A stretch of DNA of 64,000 nt from an uncultured Prevotellaceae bacterium (GCA_902774925.1 CACYKE010000003.1:26281-90280), one strand, 5' to 3'. Positions 3,561 through 62,657 are shown, numbered from the stretch's first letter. Numbers and translations: made by a program. Notes: a model not told the origin generated them from the letters alone.

Positions 3561-5084
3561 TTACTTACGTACGGTGAAGGGTGTACGGGAGGGGTCGTTG
3601 ATGATGCGTGCGGCATGGCGGCCGTCGAAGCGCGTGGGGGCGATGATGAATTCGGGGACGTTGAACGACAGGAAACGGTCGCGATAGAACTGGCGGGGAT
3701 TGCGCTGAGGCAGCATAAAGGCCTTGCTGACGCGGCCGTCGGCATCGACGTGACAGAAATAGGGACGGGTGAAGAGACCGTCGTCGCGGCGGGAACTGAC
3801 GACGAGCCAGCGGGAGTTGGCGGTCCAGTTGTGGAACGATTCCGTGTCGTCGGAGTTGGCCGCGGTCATAGGACGGCTCTCACCGGTAGTGAGGTCGAGG
3901 AGCCAGAGGTCGGCCTCGTGGTGCCAGATGCTGAACTGTCCGTAGTCGGAGAGCGTGTAGCACAGGAAACGACCGTTGTAGGAGGGTCGGGGGAAGGAGA
4001 TAGATTTTTGTTGAGCTGCGGCATCGATGATGGTGTCTATATGGTCGCCGAAGGTTCCTGTGGCAGGGTCGAAATCGATGCGGCAGAGGTTATAGCGAAT
4101 GGAGTCGAGTAGGACCGAAGATTGCTCAGATTGATTGGTTTCGGGGATGGCGCGCGCGGCACAGAAATAGAGCGACCGCCCGTCGGCCGAGAAGACGGGG
4201 AAGGTCTCGAAGATGGAGTCCTGTTTGAGCAGGGGCGAGAGGATGAGCTCGTTTTTCTCAACATCGTAGACCTGAACATCGGAGGCTTCATCGAAGACCT
4301 CGATGCGGTTGGGGTCGGCACTATGGAAGAGTTGACGCGTGGTGTTGGTGGAATAGGCGATATAGCGGCCCGACGGATGCCAGTAAGGATAGACGCAGAG
4401 GCCGAGGGTCTGTGGGGTCTTGGTGTCGTAGGCAGCCATTGACCATTGACCATTGACCATTGACCTTTGACCATTATGTCGTAGCAGGGTGGCACCATGC
4501 GGGCCACGGATGTGGAGGCTCATGTCGGCGGGGTTGCCGCGGTTGAAGCTGTGGCAGTTGACGCAGCCCTCGAACTGGGTATTTTCAATCAGCGCACGCT
4601 CGTCGAACGACGAGAGGTCGCGTTCGTAGATACCCATTTTGCTCCATACCTCGTAGCCCGGTGCTATCAGGCGGTAGCAGAGACCGTAGTCGATACTGTC
4701 GGGGCTGACGTAGAGGACGAAGGGACGGTAGGTGTGCCAGCCGTCGTCGTATTTGGCGGAAACGGTGACGGTGAGCGAGTCGCCGGGGGTATCGCCAAGT
4801 AACGTGTGCCAGTCATCAAGGTCGAAATCGACGGCATCGTCGCCCTGACTGTGCAATTCGTGTCCGTGACGGTCGGTAATGACGGCATCGATGCGCAAGG
4901 CTGTCTCGTCGGCCATATTGAAGTTGAGCGGGGCGATATTGACGGGTATGGTGACACCGATGTAGTCGGGGTATATATCGGGCTGTGCGGCCTCTTGCTT
5001 CGCGTCGCTGACGGTTTCTGTGCAAGCGGCCAACAGCCAACAGCCAATAGCCAATAGCCAGCATCTATATAGAATTTTTTTCAT
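3561..5084 (-). CDS. lipoprotein with a single CxxCH motif and a PD40/TolB-like beta-propeller region (module copy A, gene 2)
   Basis: 507 aa. Lipobox LLAAC; CVNCHS; repeated P.WSPDG-like blades (YWHPSGRYIAYS, FSADGRSLYF, PSYNGRFLCY, WTANSRWLVV). Clear paralog of 6468..8051 (IYPDY..VT.P.NIAPLNF, YRLI.P.Y, C.NCHS, YP.WHP). Confidence 0.7.
   Translation of the reverse strand: MKKILYRCWLLAIGCWLLAACTETVSDAKQEAAQPDIYPDYIGVTIPVNIAPLNFNMADETALRIDAVITDRHGHELHSQGDDAVDFDLDDWHTLLGDTPGDSLTVTVSAKYDDGWHTYRPFVLYVSPDSIDYGLCYRLIAPGYEVWSKMGIYERDLSSFDERALIENTQFEGCVNCHSFNRGNPADMSLHIRGPHGATLLRHNGQRSMVNGQWSMAAYDTKTPQTLGLCVYPYWHPSGRYIAYSTNTTRQLFHSADPNRIEVFDEASDVQVYDVEKNELILSPLLKQDSIFETFPVFSADGRSLYFCAARAIPETNQSEQSSVLLDSIRYNLCRIDFDPATGTFGDHIDTIIDAAAQQKSISFPRPSYNGRFLCYTLSDYGQFSIWHHEADLWLLDLTTGESRPMTAANSDDTESFHNWTANSRWLVVSSRRDDGLFTRPYFCHVDADGRVSKAFMLPQRNPRQFYRDRFLSFNVPEFIIAPTRFDGRHAARIINDPSRTPFTVRK
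4436..4475. repeat. heptanucleotide tandem repeat CCATTGA x about 5.7 (one unit CCTTTGA), in frame inside CDS 3561..5084
   Basis: ccattga ccattga ccattga ccattga cctttga ccatt; encodes NGQRSMVNGQWSM on the minus strand. Confidence 0.95.
5029..5063. repeat. heptanucleotide tandem repeat GCCAAYA x5, encoding the signal-peptide h-region of CDS 3561..5084
   Basis: gccaaca gccaaca gccaata gccaata gccagca; the minus strand encodes CWLLAIGCWLLA. Confidence 0.9.
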
Positions 5085-6502
5085 TGCTTAGTGGACATGA
5101 ATTGATTGAAGCGTTCGCGGTCGCCCGTCAGCATATAGTAAGCCAAGAGGTATTGATAGGCCATGCGATTGTCAGGATTGCGGGAATAGAGGCTTTCGAG
5201 CATCTCGGGGGTCGTATGGTCGCTGAAGTAGCTGTCATCCTTGTAGTTCCACTGGCGCAGGTGCCCGTATTCGGGATGTTTGGCAATGGCCTCTTCATTA
5301 CCCAACAGCGGGAGGGTCTCGTTGGCCCAGTCACGATAGAAGAGGGTCTTCTGCAGGGCCATGAGGTATTTGCGGGCCACCTCGTACTGGCCGTTGATGA
5401 GATTGGTCTGTGCCAGACGCTGGTAACAGCGACCGCTCTTCTGGAAGTCGAGAATGGCCTCCTGAGCCTCGAATACCGTTCGCTGGGCAACATTGATCAT
5501 GCCCAGCTGGTAGAAGGCCTCAGCGGTGGGCAGAGGGCTTGTGGCATCTTCCTTGACGTCGGGCAACAGACCCGCTATGCCATTCTGATTGAAATTACCC
5601 ATTTGTTCCAAGAGCATACCGTTCATTGCCAAGGCTAGATTCTGTACCGTCACACCGATTTGATTGTTGGGCTTTTCGGCACTGATGGTCTGAAGGATGC
5701 GGTTCCACTGCTGGTGGCGCGCCATGAAGTCGTATTGCATCACCTTCTCGGCCTTGATATTGGCGTTTTTCCAGACAAAAGAGCCCATGATGATGGCTAC
5801 GATTGCAAAGGAGAGGTAAGGGGTGAGAGATGAGAGGTGAGAGAAATGTACCTGGCGACGACGGATTAGAAAATTCAACCCGAAAATCACCCAAATAGAC
5901 AGGGCTGCTCCCCAAAGGAGCCACGGAAATACGGTGGGATAGCGGTGGTAGTGTATGCCGGTCCAGAGACTGTCGATGGGTATGGGGAAACATACGGGGC
6001 CTATCAGGAAGTAGAGTAGGGGAATGGCGACGATGAGCAGTATGCGGCATGTCCATCCTTTTGACAATGATACGATAACCCAGACTATGAGCAATGTAAT
6101 CAGGACTGCCCAGACACCACTCATCAGTGCATTCTCGTCGAGCAGATAAAGCCACAGCAGGAACGAAGGTACAAAGGTCAGGCCGTAGGACCATTGACCA
6201 TTGACCATTGACCATTGACCATTGGATAGCCGGAGGGTTAGGAGTTGTATCACCGAGAGCAGAATGGCAATGATGGCAGCGCCTACCCAGGCATAGAGGA
6301 AGAACTGCGTACAGAAACGCCCGAGCAGGTCGGCGATGCCTCCGGGTTGCCTGACAATCTCCCACACATACGTGCTATCGAAGAGGAAAATCTGGTACTG
6401 CTCCTGATAGTGCAGATGATGCGGATAGGTCAGTCCGAAAAAGATGAGGACAGCCACACCGAACAGACTACTTGTCAAATACTTTACTGAATTCATCGAC
6501 AC
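5081..6502 (-). CDS. polytopic inner-membrane protein with a helical-repeat (TPR-like) C-terminal domain (module copy A, gene 1; possibly DUF6057-like, unverified)
   Basis: 473 aa with multiple hydrophobic segments, then a soluble tail. Paralogous to 8035..9864 (shared LFY(R/D)DW region and overall layout). Its stop overlaps the start of 3561..5084 by 4 nt. Confidence 0.7.
   Translation of the reverse strand: MSMNSVKYLTSSLFGVAVLIFFGLTYPHHLHYQEQYQIFLFDSTYVWEIVRQPGGIADLLGRFCTQFFLYAWVGAAIIAILLSVIQLLTLRLSNGQWSMVNGQWSYGLTFVPSFLLWLYLLDENALMSGVWAVLITLLIVWVIVSLSKGWTCRILLIVAIPLLYFLIGPVCFPIPIDSLWTGIHYHRYPTVFPWLLWGAALSIWVIFGLNFLIRRRQVHFSHLSSLTPYLSFAIVAIIMGSFVWKNANIKAEKVMQYDFMARHQQWNRILQTISAEKPNNQIGVTVQNLALAMNGMLLEQMGNFNQNGIAGLLPDVKEDATSPLPTAEAFYQLGMINVAQRTVFEAQEAILDFQKSGRCYQRLAQTNLINGQYEVARKYLMALQKTLFYRDWANETLPLLGNEEAIAKHPEYGHLRQWNYKDDSYFSDHTTPEMLESLYSRNPDNRMAYQYLLAYYMLTGDRERFNQFMSTKQ
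5808..5849. repeat. imperfect heptad repeat (GGTGAGA type) about 5-6 units inside CDS 5081..6502
   Basis: aaggaga ggtaagg ggtgaga gatgaga ggtgaga gaaatgt; encodes HFSHLSSLTPYLSF on the minus strand. Confidence 0.7.
6191..6225. repeat. heptanucleotide tandem repeat CCATTGA x5 (last unit CCATTGG), in frame inside CDS 5081..6502
   Basis: ccattga x4 + ccattgg; encodes NGQWSMVNGQWS. Confidence 0.95.
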
Positions 6503-8051
6503 TGATTTTAACCGGTTCCACCATGAATTCCGGACGGTTGTAACTCTTCAGCAGGAAGGTGTTGTGTTCGGGGTCTTCCTGTGGTAGCATAAAGGCCTTT
6601 TCAAACTTCCCATCGTGGAAATAGGAGAAATAGACGCGGCAGAAATTGCCATCGTCACGACGACTGGCAACCATAATCCAATGGCCATTGCTCGACCATG
6701 AAGGATAGCTGTCGGGGCGGCCTTCACTATTGACGTTGGTCATATCAAGGAAAGTCGGATTTTGTGTATGAGCCGCTATCGAATCCTGGTCCAGCGGCAT
6801 ACAAACGATATCACCATCGTTGTGACGGATATGGAAACAACCATACTGACCCAGGGCAAAGAGCAGATAACGCCCATCGGGACTGACACGTGGCAAGGTA
6901 ACACTCTTGTCGTTCCCGGCAGCGTCGTACACCAGTTCTTCGTCACCGAAATTGTGCGTTGCCACGTCGAACGAACGGCGATAGAGGTTGTATTGCACTT
7001 TCGGGTAGGTGGTACGGATATCTTTGTCGTGCATCTCTTCAGGCAGTGGAATCGTCTTGCAGTAATAGAGCCATTTGCCGTCGGGCGACCAAGTAGGATA
7101 CACCTCCAAGAGCGTGGAATCGTTGCTGACGACCTGCACCGAATCGGTCTCCACATCGTAGAGAATCAGGTCGCTCTCCAGGTCGTAAACCTCAATCTTG
7201 TTGGGATTGAGTGTATGGAATCCCTGTCGTGTCTTGTTCGTCGAGAAGGCTATCAGCTTGGCGGTAGGATGCCATGCGGGATAGACACCCGAGGAGATGG
7301 TATAGTCGCGCTTCAGGTTGACTCTTGAAATCTTGCCGTCGTTCACCAATACGGTACCGCTATTGGCAAGACGCACGTGGAAGAGCATATTGTCGGTCTT
7401 GTAGTTCTGATAGCTGTGACAGTTGATACACTGACCGATCTTCCTGTTATTCATGGTGATCTCGTTGTTGAAGATCTGCGTCTCTTCGAACGTGGTGAGG
7501 TTACGCTGGGCGATTTCCATGAAGGTCCAGGCAACATACGACGGTTCGATGAGGCGGTACGAGATATAATCATCGATGGGTTCCTTCGCCACATGTATCT
7601 CAAAGGGATTGAACGACAGCCATTCCCCCTTCTGTTGCCCCCAAACCTCGACCTTGATGCTCTTGCCCTTTGCCGTGTTGAGCATCTCGTGCCATTCCTC
7701 CTCGGGAATCTGCACCTTTACGCCTTTACCGTAGGTCTGTTGTTGCCCGTCTGGCGTGGTGATACGAGCCACGCATGCCTCGTATTCATCAGCTGGGAGC
7801 ATGAAGTTGAGCGGTGCGATATTGTAAGGCACGGTGACATTGCAATAGTCGGGATAGATGGCCGGCAGACTCTTGACCTCCTTACTGGAAGAAGGCACAT
7901 CGGGGTGATTCGCACACGATGACAAGAATAAAAGTAAAAAGGTAAAAAGGTAAAGAGGTAAAAACACTTTCACCCAATTTCTTTCCTTGTAACTATTACT
8001 TGCTTTCATATTTTTTACTTTTTTACTTTTTTCATTATGACTGTACTTCAT
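6468..8051 (-). CDS. lipoprotein with a single CxxCH motif and a PD40/TolB-like beta-propeller region (module copy B, gene 2)
   Basis: 527 aa; CINCHS; lipobox LSSC; paralog of 3561..5084. The true start may be ATG 8009 (MKASNSY...), which would remove the overlap with the upstream gene. Confidence 0.7.
   Translation of the reverse strand: MKYSHNEKSKKVKNMKASNSYKERNWVKVFLPLYLFTFLLLFLSSCANHPDVPSSSKEVKSLPAIYPDYCNVTVPYNIAPLNFMLPADEYEACVARITTPDGQQQTYGKGVKVQIPEEEWHEMLNTAKGKSIKVEVWGQQKGEWLSFNPFEIHVAKEPIDDYISYRLIEPSYVAWTFMEIAQRNLTTFEETQIFNNEITMNNRKIGQCINCHSYQNYKTDNMLFHVRLANSGTVLVNDGKISRVNLKRDYTISSGVYPAWHPTAKLIAFSTNKTRQGFHTLNPNKIEVYDLESDLILYDVETDSVQVVSNDSTLLEVYPTWSPDGKWLYYCKTIPLPEEMHDKDIRTTYPKVQYNLYRRSFDVATHNFGDEELVYDAAGNDKSVTLPRVSPDGRYLLFALGQYGCFHIRHNDGDIVCMPLDQDSIAAHTQNPTFLDMTNVNSEGRPDSYPSWSSNGHWIMVASRRDDGNFCRVYFSYFHDGKFEKAFMLPQEDPEHNTFLLKSYNRPEFMVEPVKISVDEFSKVFDK
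7930..7961. repeat. octanucleotide tandem repeat AAAGGTAA x4, encoding the signal-peptide h-region of CDS 6468..8051
   Basis: aaaagtaa aaaggtaa aaaggtaa agaggtaa; the minus strand encodes LPLYLFTFLLL. Confidence 0.85.
8011..8034. repeat. octanucleotide repeat TTTTTTAC x3 at the junction of genes 8035..9864 and 6468..8051
   Basis: ttttttac ttttttac ttttttca, directly abutting stop codon 8035-8037. Confidence 0.8.
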
Positions 8052-9864
8052 GACCGGTATAGCCGTTTAAAACAGGAACTTTTTTGCCAAAGATGTTGTA
8101 CCACCAGTAGGTGTCTCCCCATTCCTTACGCATGCCTTCACCAACTTGATCGATAGTCATATCAGGCTTTACCCGACTTTCAAGATCCTTCCAGAACCGC
8201 TTATAGCGGTCATAGACTGTCTGTTCTACGGGGAGCATCATGCGTTTCTTTTCAGGAGCCTTGTCCATAAATAGGATATAGGCCTCTTGTGCATGCAAGG
8301 GAAATTCCTCGTCCATGTGCGTCTTCACATAATTGCGCAGCGAAGACCAGAAACGACGGGAGTCGCAGCGTAGCATGGAATAGAACAATGCCTGTTCCGA
8401 AACAGCCTTGCTAATGGAGTCGGACCAGAGGCTGATGGTGTTGACGATATAGCTGTCGCTGTTCTCAACGCCAGTGAGTTCATCGGGGAAGGCTTTCTCC
8501 AGTTCCTTGACTTTTTCCGTAACCGGAGACGGCTGCCAATCATCATAAAACAGATGGTGGTGCAGCTGGGTGGTATAGCGTTCTACCAGTTCTTTGTCTC
8601 CGCAAGCCAAGGCACAGCGGGAGAGCATCTTCAGGTAGAAGGGTGAGAAACCTGCTTGTATGGCATTCTCGAAATTCAGGCGGATGGCTTCATTCATCAT
8701 GCCGTAGTTGTAATAGACCAGCGGTGAAGCAATATCCAGAAGGGTGACATGGAGAGAATCGGGGTTATAGAGCGGATAACTACTGTTACCCAATTTAAAC
8801 GAACGGTCGAACAGCCCGCCTTCGTTTGTCAGGGCGATGTTCTTGAGAAAAACCATCGTAGTAGTAGGTTTAGGGCTCTCGGTTGCAATACTAAGCACCC
8901 CCTGCCAGTTGTCGTCTTCGGCATAGCGTACCATGCGCATCTCGTTGATGTAGTTCTTGTCGTAGAACTTCAGTGACGAGGTAAAGACGATGCCGGCAAC
9001 GGCACATAATACTGGAATCATTGACCATTGACCTTTGACCTTTGACCATTGACCATTGACCATTGACCATTGGCCTTTAGTAGTCAGGTAGTGACCCACC
9101 ATCGCGATTCCGACAGAAACGGCTCCCAGCACCCAGAATGGGATGGACAGATGCTCGCTGCTGTCGCTTGGGATGATGAAGCGGGGCAAGCCTGCAAATA
9201 CAACATCGTCGAATCTCAGGTTCGAATAGAATTGGGTATGCCAGATATTGGCGGTAAAGAGGAGCAATACAATGCCCACAAGTTCGCGCCATGTTGGTTT
9301 TTCGCAAAGTGCCAGACAAAGCACGAACAGCATGGCAAACCACCCTAACACCGGGTAGATGCAAAAGCCTATCAGATACCAGGCCAGATGCCATTTACGC
9401 GGTGTCTGGCGTGCTGCCCACAAGAGCAGCAGCATGATGAGATAAGCTACCGACTGCGAGAACCAATAGCCTCTGATGGTAGATATATATACCCAATAGC
9501 CCAAATCGACAATAGAGGTGAGCAGGCAAGCTACAGGCAAGAGCATCAGTGCTGATGCACTGGATTTTAAGCGGAATGCTTTGGCTCCCACTATGAAGAT
9601 AAGCGTCCAGATAGCTATTAGGACGGCTGATCCTACTGCCGGATGATAGAAAAGCTGTGTGAGCCATGCTCCCACATACTGCATCAGGCCAAAGGGCTTC
9701 TGCATCAGGGCGTGGAAGAAGGGTGTTCCGAAGAGGAACTCCGAACGGTCGTGAGCCGTATAGAATACCTCTTGATTGATATATAAGATATAAATGACAA
9801 ATGCTATGTAGGCCAATAGACTTCCTAAAAAGATGGCCCTGGATATCTTGTTTTCTTTATTCAT
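8035..9864 (-). CDS. polytopic inner-membrane protein with a helical C-terminal domain (module copy B, gene 1; possibly DUF6057-like, unverified)
   Basis: The ORF track gives 8035..9981. I start at ATG 9864 (MNKENKISRAIFLG...) because a TACCTTTG box at 9888-9895 lies inside the longer ORF. Many TM segments; paralog of 5081..6502. Confidence 0.7.
   Translation of the reverse strand: MNKENKISRAIFLGSLLAYIAFVIYILYINQEVFYTAHDRSEFLFGTPFFHALMQKPFGLMQYVGAWLTQLFYHPAVGSAVLIAIWTLIFIVGAKAFRLKSSASALMLLPVACLLTSIVDLGYWVYISTIRGYWFSQSVAYLIMLLLLWAARQTPRKWHLAWYLIGFCIYPVLGWFAMLFVLCLALCEKPTWRELVGIVLLLFTANIWHTQFYSNLRFDDVVFAGLPRFIIPSDSSEHLSIPFWVLGAVSVGIAMVGHYLTTKGQWSMVNGQWSKVKGQWSMIPVLCAVAGIVFTSSLKFYDKNYINEMRMVRYAEDDNWQGVLSIATESPKPTTTMVFLKNIALTNEGGLFDRSFKLGNSSYPLYNPDSLHVTLLDIASPLVYYNYGMMNEAIRLNFENAIQAGFSPFYLKMLSRCALACGDKELVERYTTQLHHHLFYDDWQPSPVTEKVKELEKAFPDELTGVENSDSYIVNTISLWSDSISKAVSEQALFYSMLRCDSRRFWSSLRNYVKTHMDEEFPLHAQEAYILFMDKAPEKKRMMLPVEQTVYDRYKRFWKDLESRVKPDMTIDQVGEGMRKEWGDTYWWYNIFGKKVPVLNGYTGHEVQS
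9018..9080. repeat. heptanucleotide tandem repeat CCATTGA/CCTTTGA x9 (63 bp), in frame inside CDS 8035..9864
   Basis: tcattga ccattga cctttga cctttga ccattga ccattga ccattga ccattgg cctttag; encodes KGQWSMVNGQWSKVKGQWSM. Confidence 0.95.
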
Positions 9865-14423: not shown

Positions 14424-14438
14424 AACTTAATTGTCGAA

Positions 14439-18422: not shown

Positions 18423-18463
18423 ATCAAAATTTTAAAAATTGTCTATCCAATTTTATAAAAACA

Positions 18464-18866
18464 CTATTCACTATTCATTATTTCTTGTAAATCACTCAAT
18501 ATCAGTATATTACAGAATGAATAGTAGTAATGAATAGTGCTCTGACTATTCATTATTTGTCTGATTTCGCTGTGATTATACCAATTCTCGCTTTCAAAAA
18601 AAGCGTGTTACTAATATTGAATAATGCAGGAAACACTTTGTCACACGTATGGTGACACTTTGTTTCTCTGCCAGTTACAACTTGTAACGAATTTCTTTGC
18701 TATCGCGTAACTTTCTAATATTTAGGATATTAACCTATTATATGGTAATAAATAATGTTGTAAAAAACGAAAAGATGAATGGTTATAAGTTTTACTTGTA
18801 CTACTATTCATGCTATAATCCTTTAATTATCAGCAAATTACCTTTAATAATGAATAAATGAATAGT
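18464..18866. repeat. cluster of at least 7 copies of the 9-10-mer ACTATTCAT(T) in both orientations within an AT-rich gap
   Basis: Forward copies at about 18465, 18471, 18545 and 18804. Reverse copies (AATGAATAGT) at 18516, 18529 and about 18857. Includes a perfect 10-bp inverted repeat AATGAATAGT-gctctg-ACTATTCATT at 18529..18554. Confidence 0.85.
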
Positions 18867-21676: not shown

Positions 21677-21762
21677 CATTCGTAAAAACTCGGGCCAGTG
21701 GCCTTGGGCATCAAATTAGAATTCTTTTTCAAATCGCTTTATTTTTAAGTTAAGGCTTATAA

Positions 21763-21797
21763 TAGTTAATAGTTACTAAGAGTTAGTAGTTTTGGTA
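21763..21797. repeat. imperfect heptad repeat TAGTTAA type x5
   Basis: tagttaa tagttac taagagt tagtagt tttggta. Confidence 0.6.
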
Positions 21798-27340: not shown

Positions 27341-27393
27341 TTTGACCTAAAGGAACAAAGCGTACTAAAGAAACGATTAGACAATTGAAGATT

Positions 27394-30300: not shown

Positions 30301-30399
30301 CTCCTCACGATTTCTAAGAATCGTAAGATCATGGAGACAAGCATTGGCTATGCCCCACAGACTCGTTTCTATAACCTCGGTGTTAAAGTAACTCTCTAA
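27394..30399 (+). CDS. second SusC-like TonB-dependent transporter (xusC position)
   Basis: ATG 27394 (MKHMKTNIFLL...); plug motif ITFLKGAQAVVLYGSKGAKGAILITTKRG. No CarboxypepD_reg-like N-terminal domain was recognised. Confidence 0.85.
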   Translation: MKHMKTNIFLLAMMAVSPLTAGAQTADDADSTVVKKKVHVAFRDVDPDHLLGGVSYVDMEELSKKDYTQSSLEDMYGLVGGWNGNNLWGMDNDRLDNNDNDNMPLVIIDGVKRPSNNVLPSEIEQITFLKGAQAVVLYGSKGAKGAILITTKRGKVDGLQIDANANTGWHFAKVFPEYLGSAEYMTLFNEATYNDALGQGNAANVKLPYSQQDIYNHAAGVNPYRYPNVNYYSDEYIRKAYNRSEGTLEIQGGGKRAHFYTNINYYRAEDLINFGKAKDNYTDRFSVRGNVDLVVNKFITGWANVSATYYNEYKNKGNFWSDASSMRPNFPQGAAPLIPLTMVDPNASKALATLGKSLNLLDGMWFPGGGTDGAQSNAIADCYFGGETQKVSRQFQFDAGINYDMNKFLKGLTFKTLFSIDYAANYDLAYNNTYSLFFPTWSNYNTGDAIVDIKQPKDEVVTGTMTMSNSAYRQTITWNGHFDYDNTFAEKHHVTGMLLASMYTTTKSGEYHRYANANLGLQGGYDFMSRYFAEVGLAAVHSARLPEGNRGAISYSFTLGWNIAKESFMKDTFVDDLMLSASYSNLNDDADVYYGSKYFYIYDAAWSDGGTGYTWADGANSHNSTYSTVGSNPSLDYIHRKELSVSLRGSFFNKLISTELTYFNTDMDGYIIQNPTSYPSHLKNGLNSGKFSPALNNNIANRKGLDFSIKAQKQFGQVHAELGFVGTYLKTEWKKYDEVADSKSPWLNSSKQLMHEGTPLDVIQGYNCLGVYTIDDFDVKTDDNGKTTYELKELVKGVQKPYGLGGTPMPGDLKYEDVNGDGKINNQDQVELGKWGTYGAPWTIGLNLTLKYKNWTLFILGNGQFGASALSNGAYYYMSGTNKYSVNVRDHYQYTYDDAGIITGFVNPNATHPRLSVNNTPANGATSTYWLYSTDRFNLRKVQVTYDFPKEWFEGKWVKALSVYLNGNDLLTISKNRKIMETSIGYAPQTRFYNLGVKVTL

Positions 30400-30432
30400 T
30401 TGACAATTGATAATTGAGAATTGAAAATTATG
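30398..30432. repeat. heptad tandem repeat AATTGAN x5 (35 bp) filling the whole spacer from the susC-2 stop to the susD-2 ATG
   Basis: aattgac aattgat aattgag aattgaa aattatg. Stop TAA at 30397-30399, ATG at 30430-30432. Confidence 0.9.
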
Positions 30433-32235: not shown

Positions 32236-32240
32236 ATACT

Positions 32241-32275
32241 AGTTTAAAGTTTAAAGTTGAAAGTTTAAAGTTTTA
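32241..32275. repeat. heptad tandem repeat AGTTTAA x5 (35 bp) occupying the spacer between susD-2 and the next gene
   Basis: agtttaa agtttaa agttgaa agtttaa agtttta. Stop at 32233-32235, next ATG at 32278. Confidence 0.9.
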
Positions 32276-33471: not shown

Positions 33472-35205
33472 ATGAAAAAAATTGTAAATGAGCTTTTAGC
33501 TTTTAGCTGTTTGCTGTTGGCCGCTTCGTGTGCTGACTATAACGATTTGGGTGGCTTTAAAGCAGAACCGGATCCCAGCTACACAGATGAGTATGCTGAG
33601 CTGAATCCTGTCAAGGACTATATTGACAGAACGGCCAATCCGAATATGTCAATGGAGACATCCATGGCCCTGACAACCTATAACAAGCAGGCCTTGGAGC
33701 ATTCAGTGGCAGTGACCAACTTTGATGGTGTTGCTTTTGGCTATACCTTTATGCCGGACAAGTACGTCAGTAAGAAGGGTTATATGAACTTCATGGCTTT
33801 GAAGGAAGCCCTTGGTCACTCGGAAACGATTGGCTATAAGGTGTACGGTAGTCCTATCGTCGCTAACGAGCAACAGTCTGATGTATGGTTTGAATCGCTG
33901 ACAGCTCCTATTGAAGTCTCGGTGCTTCCCATCAATGATGTGGATTTGGACTACTCTACGGTAGATGAATTTACAGGTACGGCGCTGAAAGGTAAACCTG
34001 CCATCGAAAAGAATTTCGATGACAAAGGTAATGCCCTTATGATTCCGAGGAGATCACAGGTTTATATCGTTGAAGGCTTCCCTTCCGATCCTCTTGGCTA
34101 TTATACCGTGACTTTCACCGTGAGGGGTTACAAAGACAACAAGAAGACGGAAATGGCTCAGGAAGAGAACATTCAATGTACTTTTACCGACAGTCTGGTG
34201 AATACCGGTAAGGATAAGAATGGTAATCTTGTTGCCAAGAAGTTCACCATCAGACCTGGTGCCTGGCAGACTGTCAAGGTGGAGTGGTCTCCGTCAAAGG
34301 CTGCCACACAGGGTTACTTGATGATTGAGGGTAACTTGAATGCAGTTCTCTATATCCGTAATGTGCATGTTGAGCACACACCGGACAACCACCGTGAGCA
34401 GACCAAGCAGGAGAAGAACGACACCATTCAGTATGCACTCAGAAAGTGGTGTGATGGTCTGATGGAGGCCAATGCCGGACGTATCAAGTCGTTCGACCTT
34501 GTTGACAAGGCGCTTGGCACAACGGAACTCGAGGGTGTTACTTTCGAGGGTGAGAATGTGCTCGACCTGAAGCACTCTGATGAAAAGATCTTCTGGCAGG
34601 ACTATCTGGAGGAAGGCACCAAGAGTGGCAGTGAGCTCTATGCTGCTACCGTATCAAAGGTGGCAAAGTCTGCCTTCGAGAAGCATGGTGGTAACTCGGA
34701 AGAGTTGAAGTTCTTTATCAGTGAGACAGGCTTGGAGAAGCAGCAGAGACTGTCGAGCCTCAAGTATTGGATCAATGTATGGGAGTCAAATGGTGCCAAG
34801 ATTGATGGTATCAACGGCGAGCTGAATCTCACCTATAGCGAGGATGCTACCACGCAGGCTGCTAATGAGGCTGCGTTGAAGGTCTACTTCGAAAAACTTG
34901 CTCAAACAGGAAAACTCATTCGTCTCTCTAACTTCGACATCAAGTATCAGGATGCTGACGGTGCTCCAGTAGCAGCAGATAAGATTTCGAAGGACCAGCG
35001 TCAGGCTCTGGCCGACTACTATGCCCGTGTCATCAGGGCCTATATGACCCTGGTTCCTGCTGCACAGCAGGCAGGCCTCTGCAAAGGAAACTTCTTTGAT
35101 ACGTCGTCCGATCCTGTGGGCCTTTGGTCTAAGGCTGCTAACGGCGACTATATGCGTAATGCCACTTACGAGGCTTTCTGCAAAGCGCTCACGGGACTAC
35201 AATAA
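33472..35205 (+). CDS. GH10-like lipoprotein with an inserted CBM-like module and both catalytic glutamates substituted (probable non-catalytic xylan-binding protein)
   Basis: 577 aa; lipobox LAASC. GH10 layout is recognisable, but WDVVNE is FDLVDK (Lys codon 34507-34509) and (I/T)SELDI is LSNFDI (Asn codon 34930-34932). GH.L.WH.QQ is degraded to GSPIVANEQQ. Confidence 0.65.
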   Translation: MKKIVNELLAFSCLLLAASCADYNDLGGFKAEPDPSYTDEYAELNPVKDYIDRTANPNMSMETSMALTTYNKQALEHSVAVTNFDGVAFGYTFMPDKYVSKKGYMNFMALKEALGHSETIGYKVYGSPIVANEQQSDVWFESLTAPIEVSVLPINDVDLDYSTVDEFTGTALKGKPAIEKNFDDKGNALMIPRRSQVYIVEGFPSDPLGYYTVTFTVRGYKDNKKTEMAQEENIQCTFTDSLVNTGKDKNGNLVAKKFTIRPGAWQTVKVEWSPSKAATQGYLMIEGNLNAVLYIRNVHVEHTPDNHREQTKQEKNDTIQYALRKWCDGLMEANAGRIKSFDLVDKALGTTELEGVTFEGENVLDLKHSDEKIFWQDYLEEGTKSGSELYAATVSKVAKSAFEKHGGNSEELKFFISETGLEKQQRLSSLKYWINVWESNGAKIDGINGELNLTYSEDATTQAANEAALKVYFEKLAQTGKLIRLSNFDIKYQDADGAPVAADKISKDQRQALADYYARVIRAYMTLVPAAQQAGLCKGNFFDTSSDPVGLWSKAANGDYMRNATYEAFCKALTGLQ

Positions 35206-42954: not shown

Positions 42955-42989
42955 TTCTTACCTCTTACCTCTCACCTCTTACCTCTTAA
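42955..42989. repeat. heptad tandem repeat CTCTTAC x5 (35 bp) filling the spacer between the PAP2 stop and the DUF1599 start
   Basis: ttcttac ctcttac ctctcac ctcttac ctcttaa. ATG at 42954-42952; stop TTA at 42986-42988. Confidence 0.9.
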
Positions 42990-44936: not shown

Positions 44937-46448
44937 ATGAAACTATATTCGGACGCAGCACTGGCAAAGATATTGGACAAAGATATCTTCCATCTTATCG
45001 GCAATGTTGCCGACGAGTTGGGGGTGGAGTGTTACGTCGTCGGGGGTTACGTGCGCGATATATTCCTCGAACGGCCTTCTGACGATATCGATGTCGTCGT
45101 CGTGGGTTCGGGCATTCGCGTTGCTGAGGCCCTGAAACAGCGTCTTGGCCGTCGTGCCCATCTCTCGGTATTCCGTAATTTTGGCACAGCCCAGGTGAAG
45201 GTGGCAGTTGGCAATTGGCAGTTAGCAAATAGCCAAGAGCCAGGAGCCAAGAGCCTCGAAATAGAGTTCGTCGGAGCGCGAAAGGAAAGCTACAGCCACG
45301 ACTCGCGCAAACCCATTGTTGAGGACGGCACGCTGGAGGATGACCAGAATCGCCGTGACTTCACCATCAATGCGATGGCTATCTGCTTGAACCACAATCG
45401 CTTCGGACAACTTGTCGACCCCTTCAACGGCATTGCTGACCTCGAAGACGGCATTATTGCCACGCCGCTCGACCCTGAGGTGACATTCTCCGACGACCCG
45501 CTGCGCATGATGCGTTGTATTCGTTTTGCCACCCAACTGAACTTCCAGATTGAGGACGAAACCTTCGAGGCCCTGCAACGGATGGCTGCACGTATCAAGA
45601 TTGTCAGTGCCGAACGTATCGAGGTGGAACTGAACAAAATCATGATGGCTCCTCATCCGAGCATCGGGTTCGAACTCCTCCAGCGCTCAGGGCTGCTTCA
45701 GATTATCCTGCCCGAACTCGCAGCTCTCGACATCGTTGAAAAGCGTGACAACCGTGCTCATAAAAACAATTTCTATCATACCCTCGAAGTCCTCGAAAAC
45801 GTCGTGATAGCCAACTGCCAAGAGCCAATGGCTAATAGCCAAAACATCCTTTGGCTCCGCTGGGCGGCCTTGCTGCATGATGTGGGAAAAACGAAGTCTA
45901 AACGCTGGGAACCAGGCATTGGCTGGACCTTCCACAACCACAATACCATCGGTGCCCGGATGGTGCCGCAGATTTTCCGGCGCCTTAAACTTCCCATGGG
46001 TACCGAGATGAAGTATGTCCAGCTGCTTGTCGACCTCCACATGCGACCGCAGGTCATTGCTGACAGTGAAGTTACCGACTCTGCCGTGCGCCGTCTGTTA
46101 AACGATGCCGGCGACTACATCGACGACCTCATGCTGCTCTGCGAGGCAGATATCACATCGAAGAACGAGGTAAAAAAACGGATGTTCCTCGAGAATTTCC
46201 GTATGGTTCGCGAAAAACTTGCCGATTTGCAGGTAAAAGACTACAAACGCCTTCTTCAGCCTGTCATCGACGGCAACGAGATTATGGAGCTCTTCCATCT
46301 CAAACCTTCCCGCGAGGTGGGTGTCCTCAAGCAATACCTCAAGGATGCCGTTCTTGACAACCGTGTTGAAAACGAGCGTGAGCCTTTGATGGCTCTCCTT
46401 CTCGAAAAAGCCCGCCAAATGGGTCTGATATCTTTACAGTCATCATAA
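44937..46448 (+). CDS. CCA-adding enzyme-like tRNA nucleotidyltransferase with an HD domain
   Basis: ATG 44937 (MKLYSDAALAKIL...). GGYVRDIFL...DIDVVV nucleotidyltransferase motif, FVGARKESY, RRDFTINA, LLHDVGK HD motif. Confidence 0.8.
   Translation: MKLYSDAALAKILDKDIFHLIGNVADELGVECYVVGGYVRDIFLERPSDDIDVVVVGSGIRVAEALKQRLGRRAHLSVFRNFGTAQVKVAVGNWQLANSQEPGAKSLEIEFVGARKESYSHDSRKPIVEDGTLEDDQNRRDFTINAMAICLNHNRFGQLVDPFNGIADLEDGIIATPLDPEVTFSDDPLRMMRCIRFATQLNFQIEDETFEALQRMAARIKIVSAERIEVELNKIMMAPHPSIGFELLQRSGLLQIILPELAALDIVEKRDNRAHKNNFYHTLEVLENVVIANCQEPMANSQNILWLRWAALLHDVGKTKSKRWEPGIGWTFHNHNTIGARMVPQIFRRLKLPMGTEMKYVQLLVDLHMRPQVIADSEVTDSAVRRLLNDAGDYIDDLMLLCEADITSKNEVKKRMFLENFRMVREKLADLQVKDYKRLLQPVIDGNEIMELFHLKPSREVGVLKQYLKDAVLDNRVENEREPLMALLLEKARQMGLISLQSS
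45203..45255. repeat. heptad repeat block in frame inside the cca-like gene (GGCARTT x3, then AGCAAAT, then AGCCARG x3.5)
   Basis: ggcagtt ggcaatt ggcagtt agcaaat agccaag agccagg agccaag agcc; encodes VAVGNWQLANSQEPGAKS. Confidence 0.85.
45809..45843. repeat. heptad repeat block x5 in frame inside the cca-like gene
   Basis: agccaac tgccaag agccaat ggctaat agccaaa; encodes IANCQEPMANSQ, just before the LLHDVGK HD motif. Confidence 0.8.
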
Positions 46449-47209: not shown

Positions 47210-47673
47210 ACAGAGAAAACGAGGGCCTACAGCAGTTAGGCCGCAAGACAGAATACAAGATGACGTATGCTCCAGAAGTTCTGGAGACGTTTGAGAACAA
47301 GCATAAGGAGAACGACTATTGGGTGCAGTTCAACTGCCCGGAATTTACGTCGCTTTGTCCGATTACCGGTCAGCCGGACTTCGCGGAAATCAAGATTGCG
47401 TACATTCCTGGTGAACGCATGGTGGAGTCGAAGAGTCTGAAACTTTACCTTTTTTCGTTCCGTAACCACGGTGACTTCCACGAGGATTGCGTGAACATCA
47501 TCATGAAGGACTTGGTGAAGCTGATGCAACCGAAGTATATCGAGGTGGTTGGGTTGTTTACACCCCGTGGCGGCATCAGCATCTGGCCTTATGCCAACTA
47601 CGGTCAGCCGGGCACGAAGTACGAGCGCATGGCCGAAGAACGATTGCTGAACCGTCAAATGGTTAACGGTTAA
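47206..47673 (+). CDS. queF: NADPH-dependent 7-cyano-7-deazaguanine (preQ0) reductase, type I
   Basis: 155 aa. [17 protein letters not shown]...[24 protein letters not shown]...[12 protein letters not shown] is near-identical in motifs to Bacillus YkvM/QueF as I recall it. Confidence 0.92.
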
Positions 47674-47702
47674 TGGTTATTGGTTATAGTTTATTGGCTT
47701 AC
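47654..47702. repeat. graded heptad repeat GGTTAAY type x7 spanning the queF stop and the HAD start
   Basis: gtcaaat ggttaac ggttaat ggttatt ggttata gtttatt ggcttac. TAA at 47671-73 and ATG at 47673-75 both lie inside it. Confidence 0.85.
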
Positions 47703-48332: not shown

Positions 48333-48348
48333 TTGACAATTAATAATG
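48330..48348. repeat. AATTGA-family stop-to-start spacer element
   Basis: TAATTGACAATTAATAATG. Its first 12 nt are identical to 30397-30408. It runs from the HAD stop to ATG 48346. Confidence 0.7.
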
Positions 48349-48948
48349 ATTATATTTAACCACGAATTTCACGAATTACACGAATCTTGGCTGCGCATGG
48401 CTTTTATGGTGTTGCTGCTAAGCTTGGTGTCAGTAAGAGCTACGGCACAGCCTGCCGGCGTTCGACTCGACACGCTGGCGGTGAAACATGTTGATTTTCA
48501 GGGTCGTACGCAGGAGGGGGTTGTTATCTGTAACCACATCATTGCCGACGACCTGCGTGCCATCTTCGAACAGCTCTACAAGGAGAAATATCCTATTGAA
48601 CGCATCCGTCCCATCTCGGAATATGGTGACGACGACGAACGTTCGATGCGTGCCAACAACACGTCGTGCTACTGTTACCGCGTGGTGGAAGGCAGTACGA
48701 AGTTGTCGAAACACGCACGGGGAATGGCCATTGACATCAATCCGCTGTATAACCCCTGTGTGCGTCGGCAGAAGGACGGTACGCTGCTTATCCAACCCGA
48801 AACAGGTAAGCCGTATGTAGACAGGAAAAAACTATTTCGGTATAAAATCAGTCGTAGCGACCTGTGTTATAGGCTGTTCACACGATATGGTTTCCGTTGG
48901 GGCGGTGACTGGCGCTCGCTGAAGGACTACCAGCACTTCGAGAAGTAA
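48346..48948 (+). CDS. M15-family metallopeptidase (D-Ala-D-Ala carboxypeptidase/VanY-like)
   Basis: 200 aa. SKHARGMAIDINP and FRWGGDW...DYQHFE motifs. The alternative start ATG 48397 (MAFMVLLLSLVSVRATAQ) would give a cleaner signal peptide. Confidence 0.75.
   Translation: MIIFNHEFHELHESWLRMAFMVLLLSLVSVRATAQPAGVRLDTLAVKHVDFQGRTQEGVVICNHIIADDLRAIFEQLYKEKYPIERIRPISEYGDDDERSMRANNTSCYCYRVVEGSTKLSKHARGMAIDINPLYNPCVRRQKDGTLLIQPETGKPYVDRKKLFRYKISRSDLCYRLFTRYGFRWGGDWRSLKDYQHFEK
48361..48387. repeat. 9-bp tandem repeat CACGAATTN x3
   Basis: cacgaattt cacgaatta cacgaatct; encodes HEFHELHES if ATG 48346 is used. Confidence 0.85.
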
Positions 48949-48972
48949 GAAGTCAGTGGTAAGAGGTATTTT
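48945..48972. repeat. imperfect heptad module GTAAGAR type x4 at the M15 gene stop
   Basis: gtaagaa gtcagtg gtaagag gtatttt. Confidence 0.5.
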
Positions 48973-50856: not shown

Positions 50857-50888
50857 TAATGGACAATTGATAATTCATGGATTATCAA
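50854..50888. repeat. AATTGA-family spacer element plus an 8-bp inverted repeat embracing the start codon
   Basis: TAATAATGGACAATTGATAATTCATGGATTATCAA. The 14-mer GACAATTGATAATT is identical to 30402-30415. The inverted repeat is ttgataat (50867-74) / attatcaa (50881-88), with ATG 50877 in the 6-nt spacer. Confidence 0.75.
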
Positions 50889-51419
50889 GCAATCATTGAT
50901 AAGTATTACCCTGCGGACGATGAAGCGCTCCGCAGGGTATTACTACAACATTCACGGCAGGTGGCTGACCGCTGTCTGCTGATAGCACGTACGCATCGGG
51001 AACTGCCTGTGGACGTGCAATTTCTGGAGGAGGCAGCCATGTTACACGATATTGGCATCTTCCGCTGTAATGCCCCTAGCATCTGTTGTAACGGTACGGA
51101 GCCATATATCCGTCACGGAGTCATCGGTGGTGAGATACTGCGCAACGAAGGCTTTCCCCGTCATGCCCGTGTGGCCGAGCGACATACGGGAACGGGACTG
51201 ACGCTGCAACAGATAGAGCGCCAGAAACTTCCCCTGCCGCACGAAGATTTCTCGCCCGAGACGCTGGAAGAACAGATTGTCTGCTATGCCGATAAGTTCT
51301 ATTCTAAGTCTCGAATGGAACGTGTGCTGACCGTTGCCGAGGCAGCGCAGTCGTTAGAGAAGTTCGGTCACGAAGGCGTACTGAAGTTCCTCGAGTGGTC
51401 ACGCATGTTCGAACGTTGA
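50877..51419 (+). CDS. HD-domain phosphohydrolase
   Basis: 180 aa; AAMLHDIG... and ERHTGTG motifs. Confidence 0.75.
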   Translation: MDYQAIIDKYYPADDEALRRVLLQHSRQVADRCLLIARTHRELPVDVQFLEEAAMLHDIGIFRCNAPSICCNGTEPYIRHGVIGGEILRNEGFPRHARVAERHTGTGLTLQQIERQKLPLPHEDFSPETLEEQIVCYADKFYSKSRMERVLTVAEAAQSLEKFGHEGVLKFLEWSRMFER

Positions 51420-51558
51420 ACATTGAACATGTTTACAAAGTGCAACTTTTCTGCATGAAAACACACCAAAATGAGTGCAAAGAAGTGACATTTCGTAATT
51501 TCTTGTATAGTTTTGTGATTTTTTTATAAATTTATTCGTTTTTTAGAGAACTATCCAT

Positions 51559-62586: not shown

Positions 62587-62617
62587 TTTTTTTTTTTTAT
62601 TATGTTATTTTTTTTTT

Positions 62618-62657
62618 CGTTATTTCGTTATTACGGGATTCCAGTATTCCGTTATTC
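62618..62657. repeat. octanucleotide tandem repeat CGTTATTN type x5 (40 bp) in the coaE-to-DUF5606 spacer
   Basis: cgttattt cgttatta cgggattc cagtattc cgttattc; overlaps the coaE stop at 62652-54. Preceded by T12 and T10 tracts (62587-62617). Confidence 0.8.

What the first reader, a model, noticed from the sequence alone, without database searches (positions are those of the whole stretch)
4436..62657. Pervasive modules of about five tandem 7-bp (sometimes 8-9-bp) units in spacers and in frame inside genes
I found at least 20 short tandem-repeat modules by eye. Most are close to 35 bp (5 x 7) and typically carry one or two wobbling positions per unit. They group into sequence families.

- GGTCAAT family (plus strand CCATTGA): 4436-4475, 6191-6225, 9018-9080. 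The related GGTTAAY type is at 47654-47702.
- GCCAAYA/GGCARTT family: 5029-5063, 45203-45255, 45809-45843.
- AATTGAN family: 27311-27340, 27380-27396, 30398-30432, 48330-48348, 50854-50879.
- GGTRAGA family (reverse complement CTCTTAC): 5808-5849, 42955-42989, 48945-48972.
- AGTTTAA type: 32241-32275.
- TAGTTAA type: 21763-21797. A degenerate module is at 39254-39288.
- Octamers: 7930-7961, 8011-8034, 62618-62657.
- Nonamers: 48361-48387.

Most of the G-containing families (not the AATTGA/AGTTTAA types) can be phased to begin GGY-N-A-N-N. Three spacers consist of nothing but one 35-bp module from stop codon to start codon.

Inside CDSs the modules always sit in the orientation that has no stop codon in any of the three frames. 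That fits filtered insertions rather than ordinary codon-level repeats.

This density and the shared about-5-unit size suggest one generating process. Candidates are a tiny mobile or templated element, or a polymerase/primase slippage signature, rather than independent microsatellites. I am not aware of a description of this.
Basis: seen in the sequence. Interest (0 to 1): 0.8.

Follow-up and report, generated by a model that had tools for sequence, protein, structure and literature searches.

The report
Heptamer tandem repeats in rumen Prevotella
This rumen Prevotella genome piece carries many short tandem repeats of 7-base units in gene junctions, signal peptides and protein loops; they are real and vary between strains, but belong to a repeat class already described in other bacteria, whose cause is still unknown.

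Summary
The core observation holds. The window has 14 period-7 tandem arrays against 0.2 expected from dinucleotide shuffles. Every other period is near background.

The host is a rumen Prevotella-like Bacteroidota. Independent metagenome assemblies carry the same arrays, so they are not artefacts.

Between strains, arrays differ by +7 nt in a spacer and by 21 or 42 nt inside genes. Orthologous sites in species only 78-87% identical keep an array whose units have drifted together.

Arrays sit only where sequence is weakly constrained:
- stop-to-start operon spacers
- three signal-peptide cores
- protein loops and tails

The "five-unit quantum" is mostly ascertainment. Six listed modules are not detectable repeats.

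Excess heptanucleotide repeats are already published: cyanobacterial STRRs, Mrazek's long simple sequence repeats, and TAACTGA repeats in Beggiatoaceae, Cyanobacteria and Bacteroidetes. I call this a new member of a known kind.

The best explanation is gain and loss of whole units by slippage, followed by selective filtering.

Two things stay unexplained:
- The unit repertoire is non-random. GGTCAAT-like units make up 6 of 14 arrays, and the same unit recurs in six phyla.
- Related genomes carry a palindromic element with heptamer arms inserted in frame.

The parts
4436..4475 (-). (GGTCAAT)x5.7, in frame in PD40 lipoprotein A, aa 204-217 (NGQRSMVNGQWSMA)
   Evidence: Identical in 8 strain contigs.
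5029..5063 (-). (GGCTRTT)x4.6. It encodes the hydrophobic core of a lipoprotein signal peptide (MKKILYRCWLLAIGCWLLAAC).
   Evidence: Strains L003-L006 and L010 have the same length with different unit variants.
5808..5849 (-). Degenerate (CTCTCAY) array in DUF6057 A, aa 216-230
   Evidence: A weak array (score 9).
6189..6225 (-). (GGTCAAT)x5.1, in frame in DUF6057 A, aa 91-103
   Evidence: Strain L009 has 2 units (-21 nt). Six strains have an unrelated segment 21 nt shorter.
7930..7964 (-). Octamer array (TTTACCTT)x4.4. It encodes the signal-peptide core of PD40 lipoprotein B (FLPLYLFTFLLL).
8010..8034 (-). Whole 25-nt spacer from the DUF6057 B stop codon to the PD40 B start codon. It is an A-rich octamer array: TAA TGAAAAAAGTAAAAAAGTAAAAAAT ATG.
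9018..9080 (-). (GGTCAAT/GGTCAAA)x8-9, in frame in DUF6057 B, aa 277-298
   Evidence: Strains L003-L007 and L010 have 21 nt of unrelated sequence instead, a difference of 42 nt or 6 units.
18462..18546 (.). (CACTATT)x3 with an inverted partner array about 35 nt downstream, in a 936-nt intergenic region. It is the only inverted pair in the window.
21760..21797 (.). Weak (TAATAGT) array in the 600-nt divergent intergenic region upstream of SusC
30398..30432 (+). (AATTGAN)x4.6. It fills the whole 30-nt SusC-like to SusD spacer and includes the stop codon TAA and the start codon ATG.
   Evidence: Identical in 6 strains.
32241..32275 (+). (AGTTTAA)x4.7. It fills the 42-nt spacer between SusD and the BT_3987-like gene.
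   Evidence: Identical in 9 strains.
33491..33518 (+). (AGCTTTT/GCTGTTT)x4 in the signal peptide of the GH10 gene, aa 7-16 (ELLAFSCLLL)
42955..42989 (-). (GAGGTAA)x4.7. It fills the 31-nt spacer between PAP2 and DUF1599.
   Evidence: A 38-nt allele (+1 unit) is in L135, L156 and L157-L159. L154, 87% identical, has a 52-nt (GTTAAGA)n array at the same site.
45202..45255 (+). GGCAGTT-to-AGCCAAG array, about 7.5 units, in frame in the CCA/poly(A)-polymerase-HD enzyme, aa 89-107
   Evidence: This is a hypervariable loop among homologs. The ortholog in L153 has a clean (GCCAACA)x7.
45807..45843 (+). (GCCAAYN)x5 array, in frame in the same enzyme, aa 291-303
47654..47702 (+). (GGTTAAY)x5-6 spanning the QueF/HAD junction. 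The array supplies the QueF tail, the overlapping TAATG stop/start and the HAD N-terminus.
   Evidence: L156 has about 2 units here.
51411..51430 (+). (GAACATT)x2.9 over the stop codon of the HD-domain gene
   Evidence: 17 nt are missing in L156. L131 has the same unit family in its SusC/SusD spacer.
62587..62659 (-). Octamer array (GGAATAAC-like) plus A-runs in the 65-nt spacer between CoaE and the next gene
48361..48387 (+). Nonamer (CACGAATTN)x2.8, an ordinary codon-phase repeat (HEF HEL HES)
14427..14435 (-). GACAATTRA junction motif. The other copies are at 27380-27388, 30402-30410, 48335-48343 and 50862-50870, all on the + strand.
   Evidence: 5 copies against 1.34 expected. All are on the sense strand, 2-19 nt upstream of a start codon in a short spacer.

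Best explanation
These are heptanucleotide simple-sequence repeats of the kind known as STRRs or long simple sequence repeats. The host is a rumen Prevotella-like bacterium.

Proposed mechanism:
1. Arrays gain and lose whole 7-nt units, most simply by slipped-strand mispairing during replication or repair. Polymorphism in whole units is shown; the enzymology is inferred.
2. New unit variants spread along an array, so its sequence drifts in concert while its position and period persist. This is shown across species.
3. Selection removes arrays wherever sequence or length matters. Survivors sit in operon junction spacers, signal-peptide cores, surface loops and protein tails.
4. Inside genes only the stop-free orientation survives, and only changes of three units (21 nt). 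This is shown.
5. At junctions the surviving arrays are A-rich and C-poor on the mRNA strand and weakly structured. That suits ribosomes that do not use Shine-Dalgarno pairing. Here the arrays are at least tolerated and may help initiation. This is inferred.

Why the period is 7 is unknown. The only published idea is that about 7 nt is the stretch of DNA held by the polymerase.
For: Excess and period:
- The period-7 excess holds in the window.
- It also holds in 120 loci from six phyla.

Unit-number polymorphism between strains 96-100% identical:
- +7 nt in the 42955 spacer
- -21 nt at 6189
- 42 nt at 9018
- -17 nt at 51411
- about 6 against about 2 units at the QueF/HAD junction

Persistence with drifting units:
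- Both loops of the CCA enzyme carry arrays in species 78% identical, (GCCAACA)x7 in one and a GGCAGTT/AGCCAAG mix in the other.
- The PAP2/DUF1599 spacer holds GAGGTAA units in the window and GTTAAGA units at 87% identity.

Shape of the arrays:
- Array lengths fall off monotonically.
- Unit-to-unit distance grows with separation: 0.86, 1.11, 1.24 and 1.54 at lags 1-4. My detection method favours similarity at lag 1, so this is weak evidence.

Filtering:
- 626 nt of short co-directional spacers, about 1% of the window, hold 4 of 17 strong arrays.
- 3 in-gene arrays lie in signal-peptide cores.
- In the CCA enzyme the arrays sit at the two main hypervariable spots among the 20 aligned homologs.

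Junction arrays:
- Sense-strand composition is A 0.37, T 0.31, G 0.20, C 0.11.
- Mean folding energy over -40 to +20 is -6.6 against -10.0 kcal/mol for 555 other starts, p = 0.003.

Literature:
- Heptamers are the commonest long simple sequence repeat, and a slippage hypothesis has been proposed (PMC4679880, PMC4692102).
- Bacteroidetes translation depends on A-rich, unstructured leaders (PMC6847099, PMC3155529).
Against: - Slippage alone does not explain the non-random units. 6 of 14 window arrays have a unit within one mismatch of GGTCAAT, against 1.9% expected.
- (GGTCAAT)4 is found in six phyla.
- GACAATTRA recurs at five junctions.
- Alleles with and without an array differ by replacement of unrelated sequence, not by visible growth from a local seed.
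- Genomes 93% identical carry different unit families at the same junction.
- No within-population single-unit variation was measured.
- The preference for 7 nt has no demonstrated cause.
- The lower folding energy of junction arrays is partly an effect of A+T content.
Confidence: 0.6

Rival explanations
1. Arrays are delivered to new sites ready-made. The vehicle would be a very small mobile or palindromic element, or template switching that copies an existing array elsewhere. Slippage then only modulates their length.
For: - The same unit families occur at many unlinked sites.
- Array-bearing alleles replace unrelated sequence.
- L131 has a 67-nt (GGATGGT)n array where the window's genes overlap.
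- In other Prevotellaceae, 7 of 42 (GGTCAAT)n arrays have an inverted (CCATTGA)n partner within 150 nt.
- Copies in PurM (L016) and RibE (L087), and two further copies in L078, share the loop CATTTGGCTACGCCC between the arms and lie in frame in PurM and RibE.
- The RibE loop ranges from 5 to about 40 residues among orthologs 80-94% identical.
- Cyanobacterial arrays are often followed by inverted arrays.
Against: - The window has no copy of that loop, even allowing 3 mismatches.
- It has no inverted partners except at 18462.
- Array ends fall at variable phases, with no fixed termini or target duplications.
- There are 134 distinct units and a continuous length distribution.
- Unit gain and loss happens in place.
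- The RibE alleles form a graded series, which also fits growth in place.
- In viral contigs GGTCAAT arrays (6) are barely commoner than two permuted heptamers (4 and 2).
Confidence: 0.17
2. Junction arrays are selected cis-elements. They would be repeated binding sites for a translational or RNA-binding regulator, as proposed for TAACTGA repeats. Their sequences would then be maintained by function.
For: - Arrays end 0-5 nt from start codons.
- In the window's junction spacers the A-rich strand is the mRNA strand, for genes on both DNA strands.
- All five GACAATTRA copies lie on the sense strand just upstream of start codons.
- MacGregor 2015 reports a parallel case (PMC4679880).
Against: - The same units also occur inside genes, in signal peptides and in loops.
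- Orthologous junctions carry different unit families or no array at all.
- GACAATTRA is not enriched in other Prevotellaceae.
- No candidate binding protein has been identified.
Confidence: 0.12
3. In-gene arrays are contingency loci. Gain or loss of one 7-nt unit would switch the gene off and on (phase variation).
For: - Heptamer repeats do drive phase variation at the Haemophilus hmw1A/hmw2A loci (PMC8262952).
- 7 is not a multiple of 3, so a one-unit change shifts the reading frame.
Against: - All length differences seen inside genes are 21 or 42 nt.
- No frameshifted allele appears among about 10 contigs per site, and nearly all of the 120 listed CCA-enzyme homologs are close to full length.
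- The hosts include housekeeping enzymes: the CCA enzyme, and PurM and RibE in relatives.
Confidence: 0.03
4. The repeats are chance matches or assembly artefacts.
For: None found.
Against: - Shuffles give 0.2 arrays against 14 observed.
- Identical arrays occur in independent assemblies from different studies.
- They also occur in cultured isolates: Xylanibacter ruminicola KHT3, Prevotella sp. tf2-5 and Prevotellaceae bacterium MN60.
- Arrays are shorter than a sequencing read.
Confidence: 0.01

Closest known systems
Heptanucleotide long simple sequence repeats (Mrazek, Guo & Shah 2007, PNAS 104:8472; read only through its summaries in PMC4679880 and PMC4692102)
   Same: - Tandem 7-nt units longer than chance allows.
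- Heptamers are the dominant class among 5-11 nt units.
- The taxonomic distribution is scattered.
- Slippage is the proposed cause.
   Different: - Prevotella was not found in any paper I could search.
- Many arrays here lie in frame inside genes, whereas that survey found mainly units in multiples of three within coding regions.
Cyanobacterial STRR sequences (Mazel et al. 1990; unit sequences CCCCAGT, TTGGTCA and CAACAGT are from my own knowledge; PMC4692102 cites three repetitive heptanucleotides in Calothrix PCC 7601)
   Same: - Short tandem heptamers at many loci.
- The window units GGTCAAT and CAACAGC each differ by one base from STRR2 (read as GGTCATT) and STRR3 (CAACAGT).
- Exact (GGTCAAT)4 occurs in Calothrix, Fischerella and Westiellopsis.
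   Different: - The host phylum differs.
- In the cyanobacterial loci I sampled the arrays are almost all intergenic (15 of 16), often longer, and often paired with inverted arrays.
- In Prevotellaceae 25 of 42 (GGTCAAT)n arrays lie inside open reading frames.
TAACTGA direct repeats of Beggiatoaceae, Cyanobacteria and five Bacteroidetes (MacGregor 2015, PMC4679880)
   Same: - Heptamer arrays of 2-6 copies lie immediately upstream of start codons in forward orientation, in genomes that make little use of Shine-Dalgarno sites.
- Strain differences come in 7-nt steps.
- Other heptamer arrays are found nearby.
- No mechanism is known.
   Different: - The unit differs. The nearest unit in the window is TAACTAT at 21760, matching 5 of 7 bases.
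- In the Maribeggiatoa genome one unit dominates, whereas this window has several families.
GGGAATC / GGGGAYT repeats of Xanthomonas and Nostoc (Rehm et al. 2015, PMC4692102)
   Same: - Intergenic heptamer arrays.
- They sit between the same genes in related strains but vary in length and sequence.
   Different: Those repeats are G-rich and can form quadruplexes. The window units are not.
Rickettsia palindromic elements (Ogata et al. 2000; from my own knowledge)
   Same: Small palindromic repeats inserted in frame into housekeeping genes. This resembles the composite element seen in related Prevotellaceae.
   Different: - The window holds no such composite.
- The arms here are heptamer arrays.
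- Mobility has not been shown.

Membership tests
Heptanucleotide long simple sequence repeats | Head-to-tail copies of a 7-nt unit | tested here: met
   Tandem Repeats Finder and my own scan
Heptanucleotide long simple sequence repeats | Arrays longer or more numerous than the genome's composition predicts | tested here: met
   14 observed against 0.2 expected; 10 against 0 at the stricter score
Heptanucleotide long simple sequence repeats | Period 7 predominates over neighbouring unit sizes | tested here: met
   Window counts for periods 6/7/8/9 are 2/14/3/5. In 120 loci there are 311 arrays of period 7 against at most 27 of any other period.
Heptanucleotide long simple sequence repeats | Copy number varies between strains in whole units | tested here: met
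   +7, -21 and 42 nt
Heptanucleotide long simple sequence repeats | Generated by replication slippage | not testable with these tools
   This needs mutation-rate assays or read-level population data.
Cyanobacterial STRR | One of the canonical units (CCCCAGT, TTGGTCA, CAACAGT) | tested here: inconclusive
   The window units match 6 of 7 bases. Exact (GGTCAAT)n occurs in Calothrix and Fischerella.
Cyanobacterial STRR | Host is a heterocystous cyanobacterium | tested here: not met
   The window has SusC/SusD loci, DUF6057 and a Bacteroidota gene set. Its closest relatives are rumen Prevotella genomes assembled from metagenomes.
TAACTGA repeats | Unit is TAACTGA | tested here: not met
   No array with this unit in the scans. 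The nearest is TAACTAT.
TAACTGA repeats | Forward orientation immediately upstream of start codons | tested here: met
   Junction arrays at 8010, 30398, 32241, 42955 and 62587, plus junction arrays in other Prevotellaceae loci among the 29 cases.
Phase-variable contingency repeats | Frame-shifting copy-number variants in the population | tested here: not met
   Only 21-nt multiples were seen inside genes. Minority variants at read level were not examined.
Miniature mobile or palindromic element (MITE, REP or Rickettsia-type) | Defined termini, inverted arms, target-site features | tested here: not met
   Window arrays are solo, with variable ends. The composite element's loop is absent from the window.

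The most novel reading that the evidence does not exclude
A conserved, sequence-biased process writes GGTCAAT-like heptamer arrays into permissive sites. The arrays may be solo or may form inverted arms around a conserved loop. The sites include positions in frame within housekeeping genes and exactly between stop and start codons. The process would operate in several phyla and its enzyme would be unknown, for example a transposase, a reverse transcriptase or a template-switching polymerase. Slippage would then be only a secondary modulator.
Probability: 0.15. Interest if true: 0.75.

Novelty: new member of a known kind. Interest (0 to 1): 0.35.

Why it matters
The excess of heptamer repeats in bacteria was noted in 1990 and 2007 and still has no mechanism.

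This lineage offers useful material:
- It has cultured relatives: Xylanibacter ruminicola KHT3 and Prevotella sp. tf2-5.
- Natural alleles differ by whole units.
- Some orthologous sites carry an array in one strain and none in another.

The data also show heptamer arrays acting as raw material for new sequence:
- signal-peptide cores
- protein loops of (MVNGQWS)n
- gene tails
- entire stop-to-start junctions

In practice such arrays inflate open reading frames, mislead start-codon calling and are indel hot spots in strain typing.

Tried and rejected
- Rfam and tRNA scans of the window found nothing.
- A CRISPR-like reading is rejected because the units are contiguous, with no spacers between them.
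- A fixed 35-nt module is rejected by the length distribution.
- I tested whether GGTCAAT is uniquely favoured, using viral contigs. GGTCAAT arrays gave 6 hits and three permuted heptamers gave 4, 2 and 0. This is inconclusive.
- A metagenome scan for length alleles of the 42955 spacer returned only three contigs, all the 38-nt allele.
- A cluster look-up did not name the organism.
- The Mrazek 2007 paper could not be read directly, so I rely on two papers that summarise it.
- Orientation relative to the replication strand was not assessed, because one window has too few arrays.
- GACAATTRA as a general Prevotellaceae motif is rejected.

Full report
**What is in the window**

Tandem Repeats Finder lists period-7 arrays of 4.6-7.7 copies at 4436, 5029, 6189, 9019, 30398, 32241, 42956 and 47660. 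Shorter arrays are at 5824, 18462, 45202/45231 and 51411. Octamers are at 7930, 8011 and 62604.

I ran a simple self-match scan against 30 dinucleotide-preserving shuffles. It gives 14 period-7 arrays against 0.2 expected at score >=9, and 10 against 0 at score >=11. Periods 4-6 and 10-12 give 0-2 arrays. The excess is real and specific to period 7, with a small spill-over to periods 8 and 9.

**Organism and reality of the repeats**

The genes are Bacteroidota-type:
- SusC/SusD pairs
- DUF6057 and PD40 gene pairs
- GH10
- a SASA esterase

Proteins identical to those of the window are encoded on rumen metagenome contigs from several independent studies. Close homologs carry the source name Prevotella sp.. 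The arrays are identical in these independent assemblies and shorter than a sequencing read, so they are not artefacts.

**Where the arrays sit**

I built a gene map from the called genes of identical contigs. The arrays fall into three settings.

1. Operon junctions.
   - The spacers 8010-8034, 30400-30429 and 42955-42985 are array from stop codon to start codon.
   - 32236-32277 is array apart from a few bases at each end.
   - The QueF/HAD junction (47654-47702) lies inside a GGTTAAY array. That array supplies the QueF tail, the overlapping TAATG stop/start and the HAD N-terminus.
   - Short co-directional spacers total 626 nt, about 1% of the window, yet hold 4 of 17 strong arrays.
2. Signal-peptide cores.
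   - 5029: CWLLAIGCWLLA
   - 7930: FLPLYLFTFLLL
   - 33491: ELLAFSCLLL
3. Loops and internal segments of proteins.
   - (GGTCAAT)n encodes GQWSMVN repeats in two DUF6057 proteins and one PD40 protein.
   - Two arrays lie in the CCA/poly(A)-polymerase-HD enzyme.

In-frame arrays use the stop-free orientation, which is unavoidable for three or more units. The array at 33491 has TAG in its two unused frames.

**Strain and species comparison**

Contigs 96-100% identical to the window differ from it at the arrays:
- 6189 has 5 units, 2 units or an unrelated segment.
- 9018 has 63 nt of array or 21 nt of unrelated sequence.
- The window's 136-nt spacer at 3425-3560 is replaced in other strains by TAA-AACGAAAACGATAACGAAAACGAAAATAGT-ATG.

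Further differences:
- The 42955 spacer has a 38-nt allele, one unit longer.
- A genome 92.6% identical has arrays where the window has none:
  - a 67-nt (GGATGGT)n array where the window's genes overlap
  - a GAACATT array in a SusC/SusD spacer

The CCA enzyme is otherwise highly conserved. Among the 20 aligned homologs the two array sites stand out as hypervariable loops. Orthologs only 78% identical at the DNA level still carry arrays at both sites, one of them a clean (GCCAACA)x7. An 84% relative has none at loop 1 and a 9-nt repeat at loop 2.

Arrays are therefore long-lived at a site and keep their period. Their units change together, and they can be lost or replaced.

**Breadth**

The hits include:
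- many rumen Prevotellaceae, including cultured isolates
- Chitinophagales and Saprospiraceae
- heterocystous cyanobacteria
- Chloroflexota
- Acidobacteriota
- others

Those 870 kb hold 187 further period-7 arrays with many different units. They hold 27 arrays of period 8 and 18 of period 9.

Among unselected arrays in Prevotellaceae, length declines steadily from 2 to 5 units and drops sharply above about 38 nt. The five-unit module is therefore an upper bound combined with what the eye picks out.

**What is already known**

Full-text searches and reading show the class has been described:
- Mrazek et al. 2007 found heptanucleotides to be the commonest long simple sequence repeat and proposed polymerase slippage.
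- Three heptamers were reported in Calothrix in 1990.
- MacGregor 2015 described TAACTGA arrays just upstream of start codons in Beggiatoaceae, Cyanobacteria and five Bacteroidetes. These show 7-nt indels between strains and 'no mechanism evident'.
- Rehm 2015 described GGGAATC arrays in Xanthomonas and Nostoc.

I found nothing on Prevotella.

**Mechanism**

The simplest account is gain and loss of whole units, concerted drift of units, and selective filtering.

- At junctions the arrays are A-rich and C-poor on the mRNA strand.
- Regions from -40 to +20 that contain an array fold less stably than other starts: -6.6 against -10.0 kcal/mol, p = 0.003.
- That fits Bacteroidetes translation, which ignores Shine-Dalgarno pairing and depends on unstructured A-rich leaders (PMC6847099, PMC3155529).
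- The lower folding energy partly reflects A+T content.

**What this does not explain**

- Units are not random. 6 of 14 window arrays are within one mismatch of GGTCAAT in some rotation or strand, against 1.9% expected.
- The junction families AATTGAC and GAACATT are near reverse complements of GGTCAAT.
- GACAATTRA occurs five times, always on the sense strand 2-19 nt before a start codon. It is not enriched in other Prevotellaceae.
- 134 units share a weak common phase, although that sample is biased.
- Alleles with and without an array differ by replacement rather than by visible growth from a seed.
- In other Prevotellaceae, 7 of 42 (GGTCAAT)n arrays have an inverted partner.
  - Copies in PurM (L016) and RibE (L087), and two further copies in L078, share a conserved loop between the arms.
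  - The RibE loop ranges from 5 to about 40 residues among close orthologs.

The last point resembles a small palindromic element. The window has no copy, and the graded RibE series also fits growth in place. I therefore keep a copy-and-paste or mobile origin as a minority rival.

**Verdict**

This is a real and statistically strong feature. It is a new host lineage for a known but mechanistically unexplained repeat class. Its unusual aspects are the frequent in-frame arrays and the stop-to-start junction arrays. Interest is moderate.

Noticed in passing
window 14427-14435(-), 27380-27388, 30402-30410, 48335-48343, 50862-50870: The motif GACAATTRA occurs five times against 1.34 expected. Every copy is on the sense strand, 2-19 nt upstream of a start codon in a short operon spacer. 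It is not enriched in 370 kb from other Prevotellaceae, so it may be a lineage-specific junction signal or the seed of the AATTGAN arrays.
   Followed up: partly
L016 about 4650-4760(-), L078 about 4100-4200(-), L087 about 300-420(+); also L028 and L059: A composite palindromic element: (CCATTGA)n arm, a conserved loop (CATTTGGCTACGCCC...) of about 40 nt, then a (GGTCAAT)n arm. L016 and L087 carry it in frame in PurM and RibE, and L078 holds two further copies. L028 (a sigma factor) and L059 (an ATPase) carry similar inverted arms with different loops. It resembles Rickettsia palindromic elements. The window has no copy.
   Followed up: partly
Alignment A2 (RibE homologs P0121-P0240), between CLTVV and TYTVTAMRETL: One loop of riboflavin synthase varies from 5 to about 40 residues among orthologs 80-94% identical elsewhere. 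The alleles form a graded series from no array, to one arm, to a full inverted pair.
   Followed up: partly
L037, L063, L079, L090 (Prevotellaceae): (GGTCAAT)n encodes MVNGQWS repeats at the same position in a C-terminal segment of four large proteins. The motifs there (YDLSGR...GVYIVNGKKV) look like type IX secretion sorting domains, but I did not check this with a domain search.
   Followed up: no
L012, L018, L052, L071, L074, L089, L105, L110 (cyanobacteria): (GGTCAAT)n arrays are followed within about 20-40 nt by inverted (TTGACNN)n arrays, giving long imperfect hairpins. This architecture is rare in the Prevotella window.
   Followed up: no
window 18462-18560: (CACTATT)3 is followed by an inverted copy (GAATGAATAGTAGTAATGAATAGTG) and then a third direct copy, within a 936-nt intergenic region. 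The flank differs in strains L003-L006.
   Followed up: partly
window 40466-42403(-): MauE and triose-phosphate isomerase are read as one 645-aa open frame here and in several strains. In L131 and L153 they are separate genes, and L131 has an A-rich AACGAAA-type array as the spacer.
   Followed up: partly
window 61529-61664(+): The 990-aa outer-membrane beta-barrel protein ends in a Gly/Arg/Phe-rich tail (FGGGFGGRGGRGGRGQGGPGGFGGGRGGRGGGFGGGGFGGGFGGGRPMM). The tail is encoded by 12-, 24- and 27-nt repeats.
   Followed up: no
window 40197-40285(-): The SPOR-domain gene has a Thr/Pro-rich linker (TTTTTKPTTPTSPTSPTKPTNPTSSTTTTKPTTTT) encoded by 9-, 18- and 36-nt repeats. It differs by 9 nt in several relatives, and the surrounding region is heavily rearranged in L132.
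   Followed up: no
window 3425-3560(-): This 136-nt spacer contains a short inverted repeat (GGACCATTCCGGTCC). In other strains a 31-nt or about 50-nt heptamer array runs from stop to start in its place, so operon structure may differ between strains.
   Followed up: partly
L155 4637-4704(-): In a related species a 68-nt nonamer array (GAAGTTAGA/GAAGTTAAA) fills a whole stop-to-start spacer in the same conserved operon.
   Followed up: no
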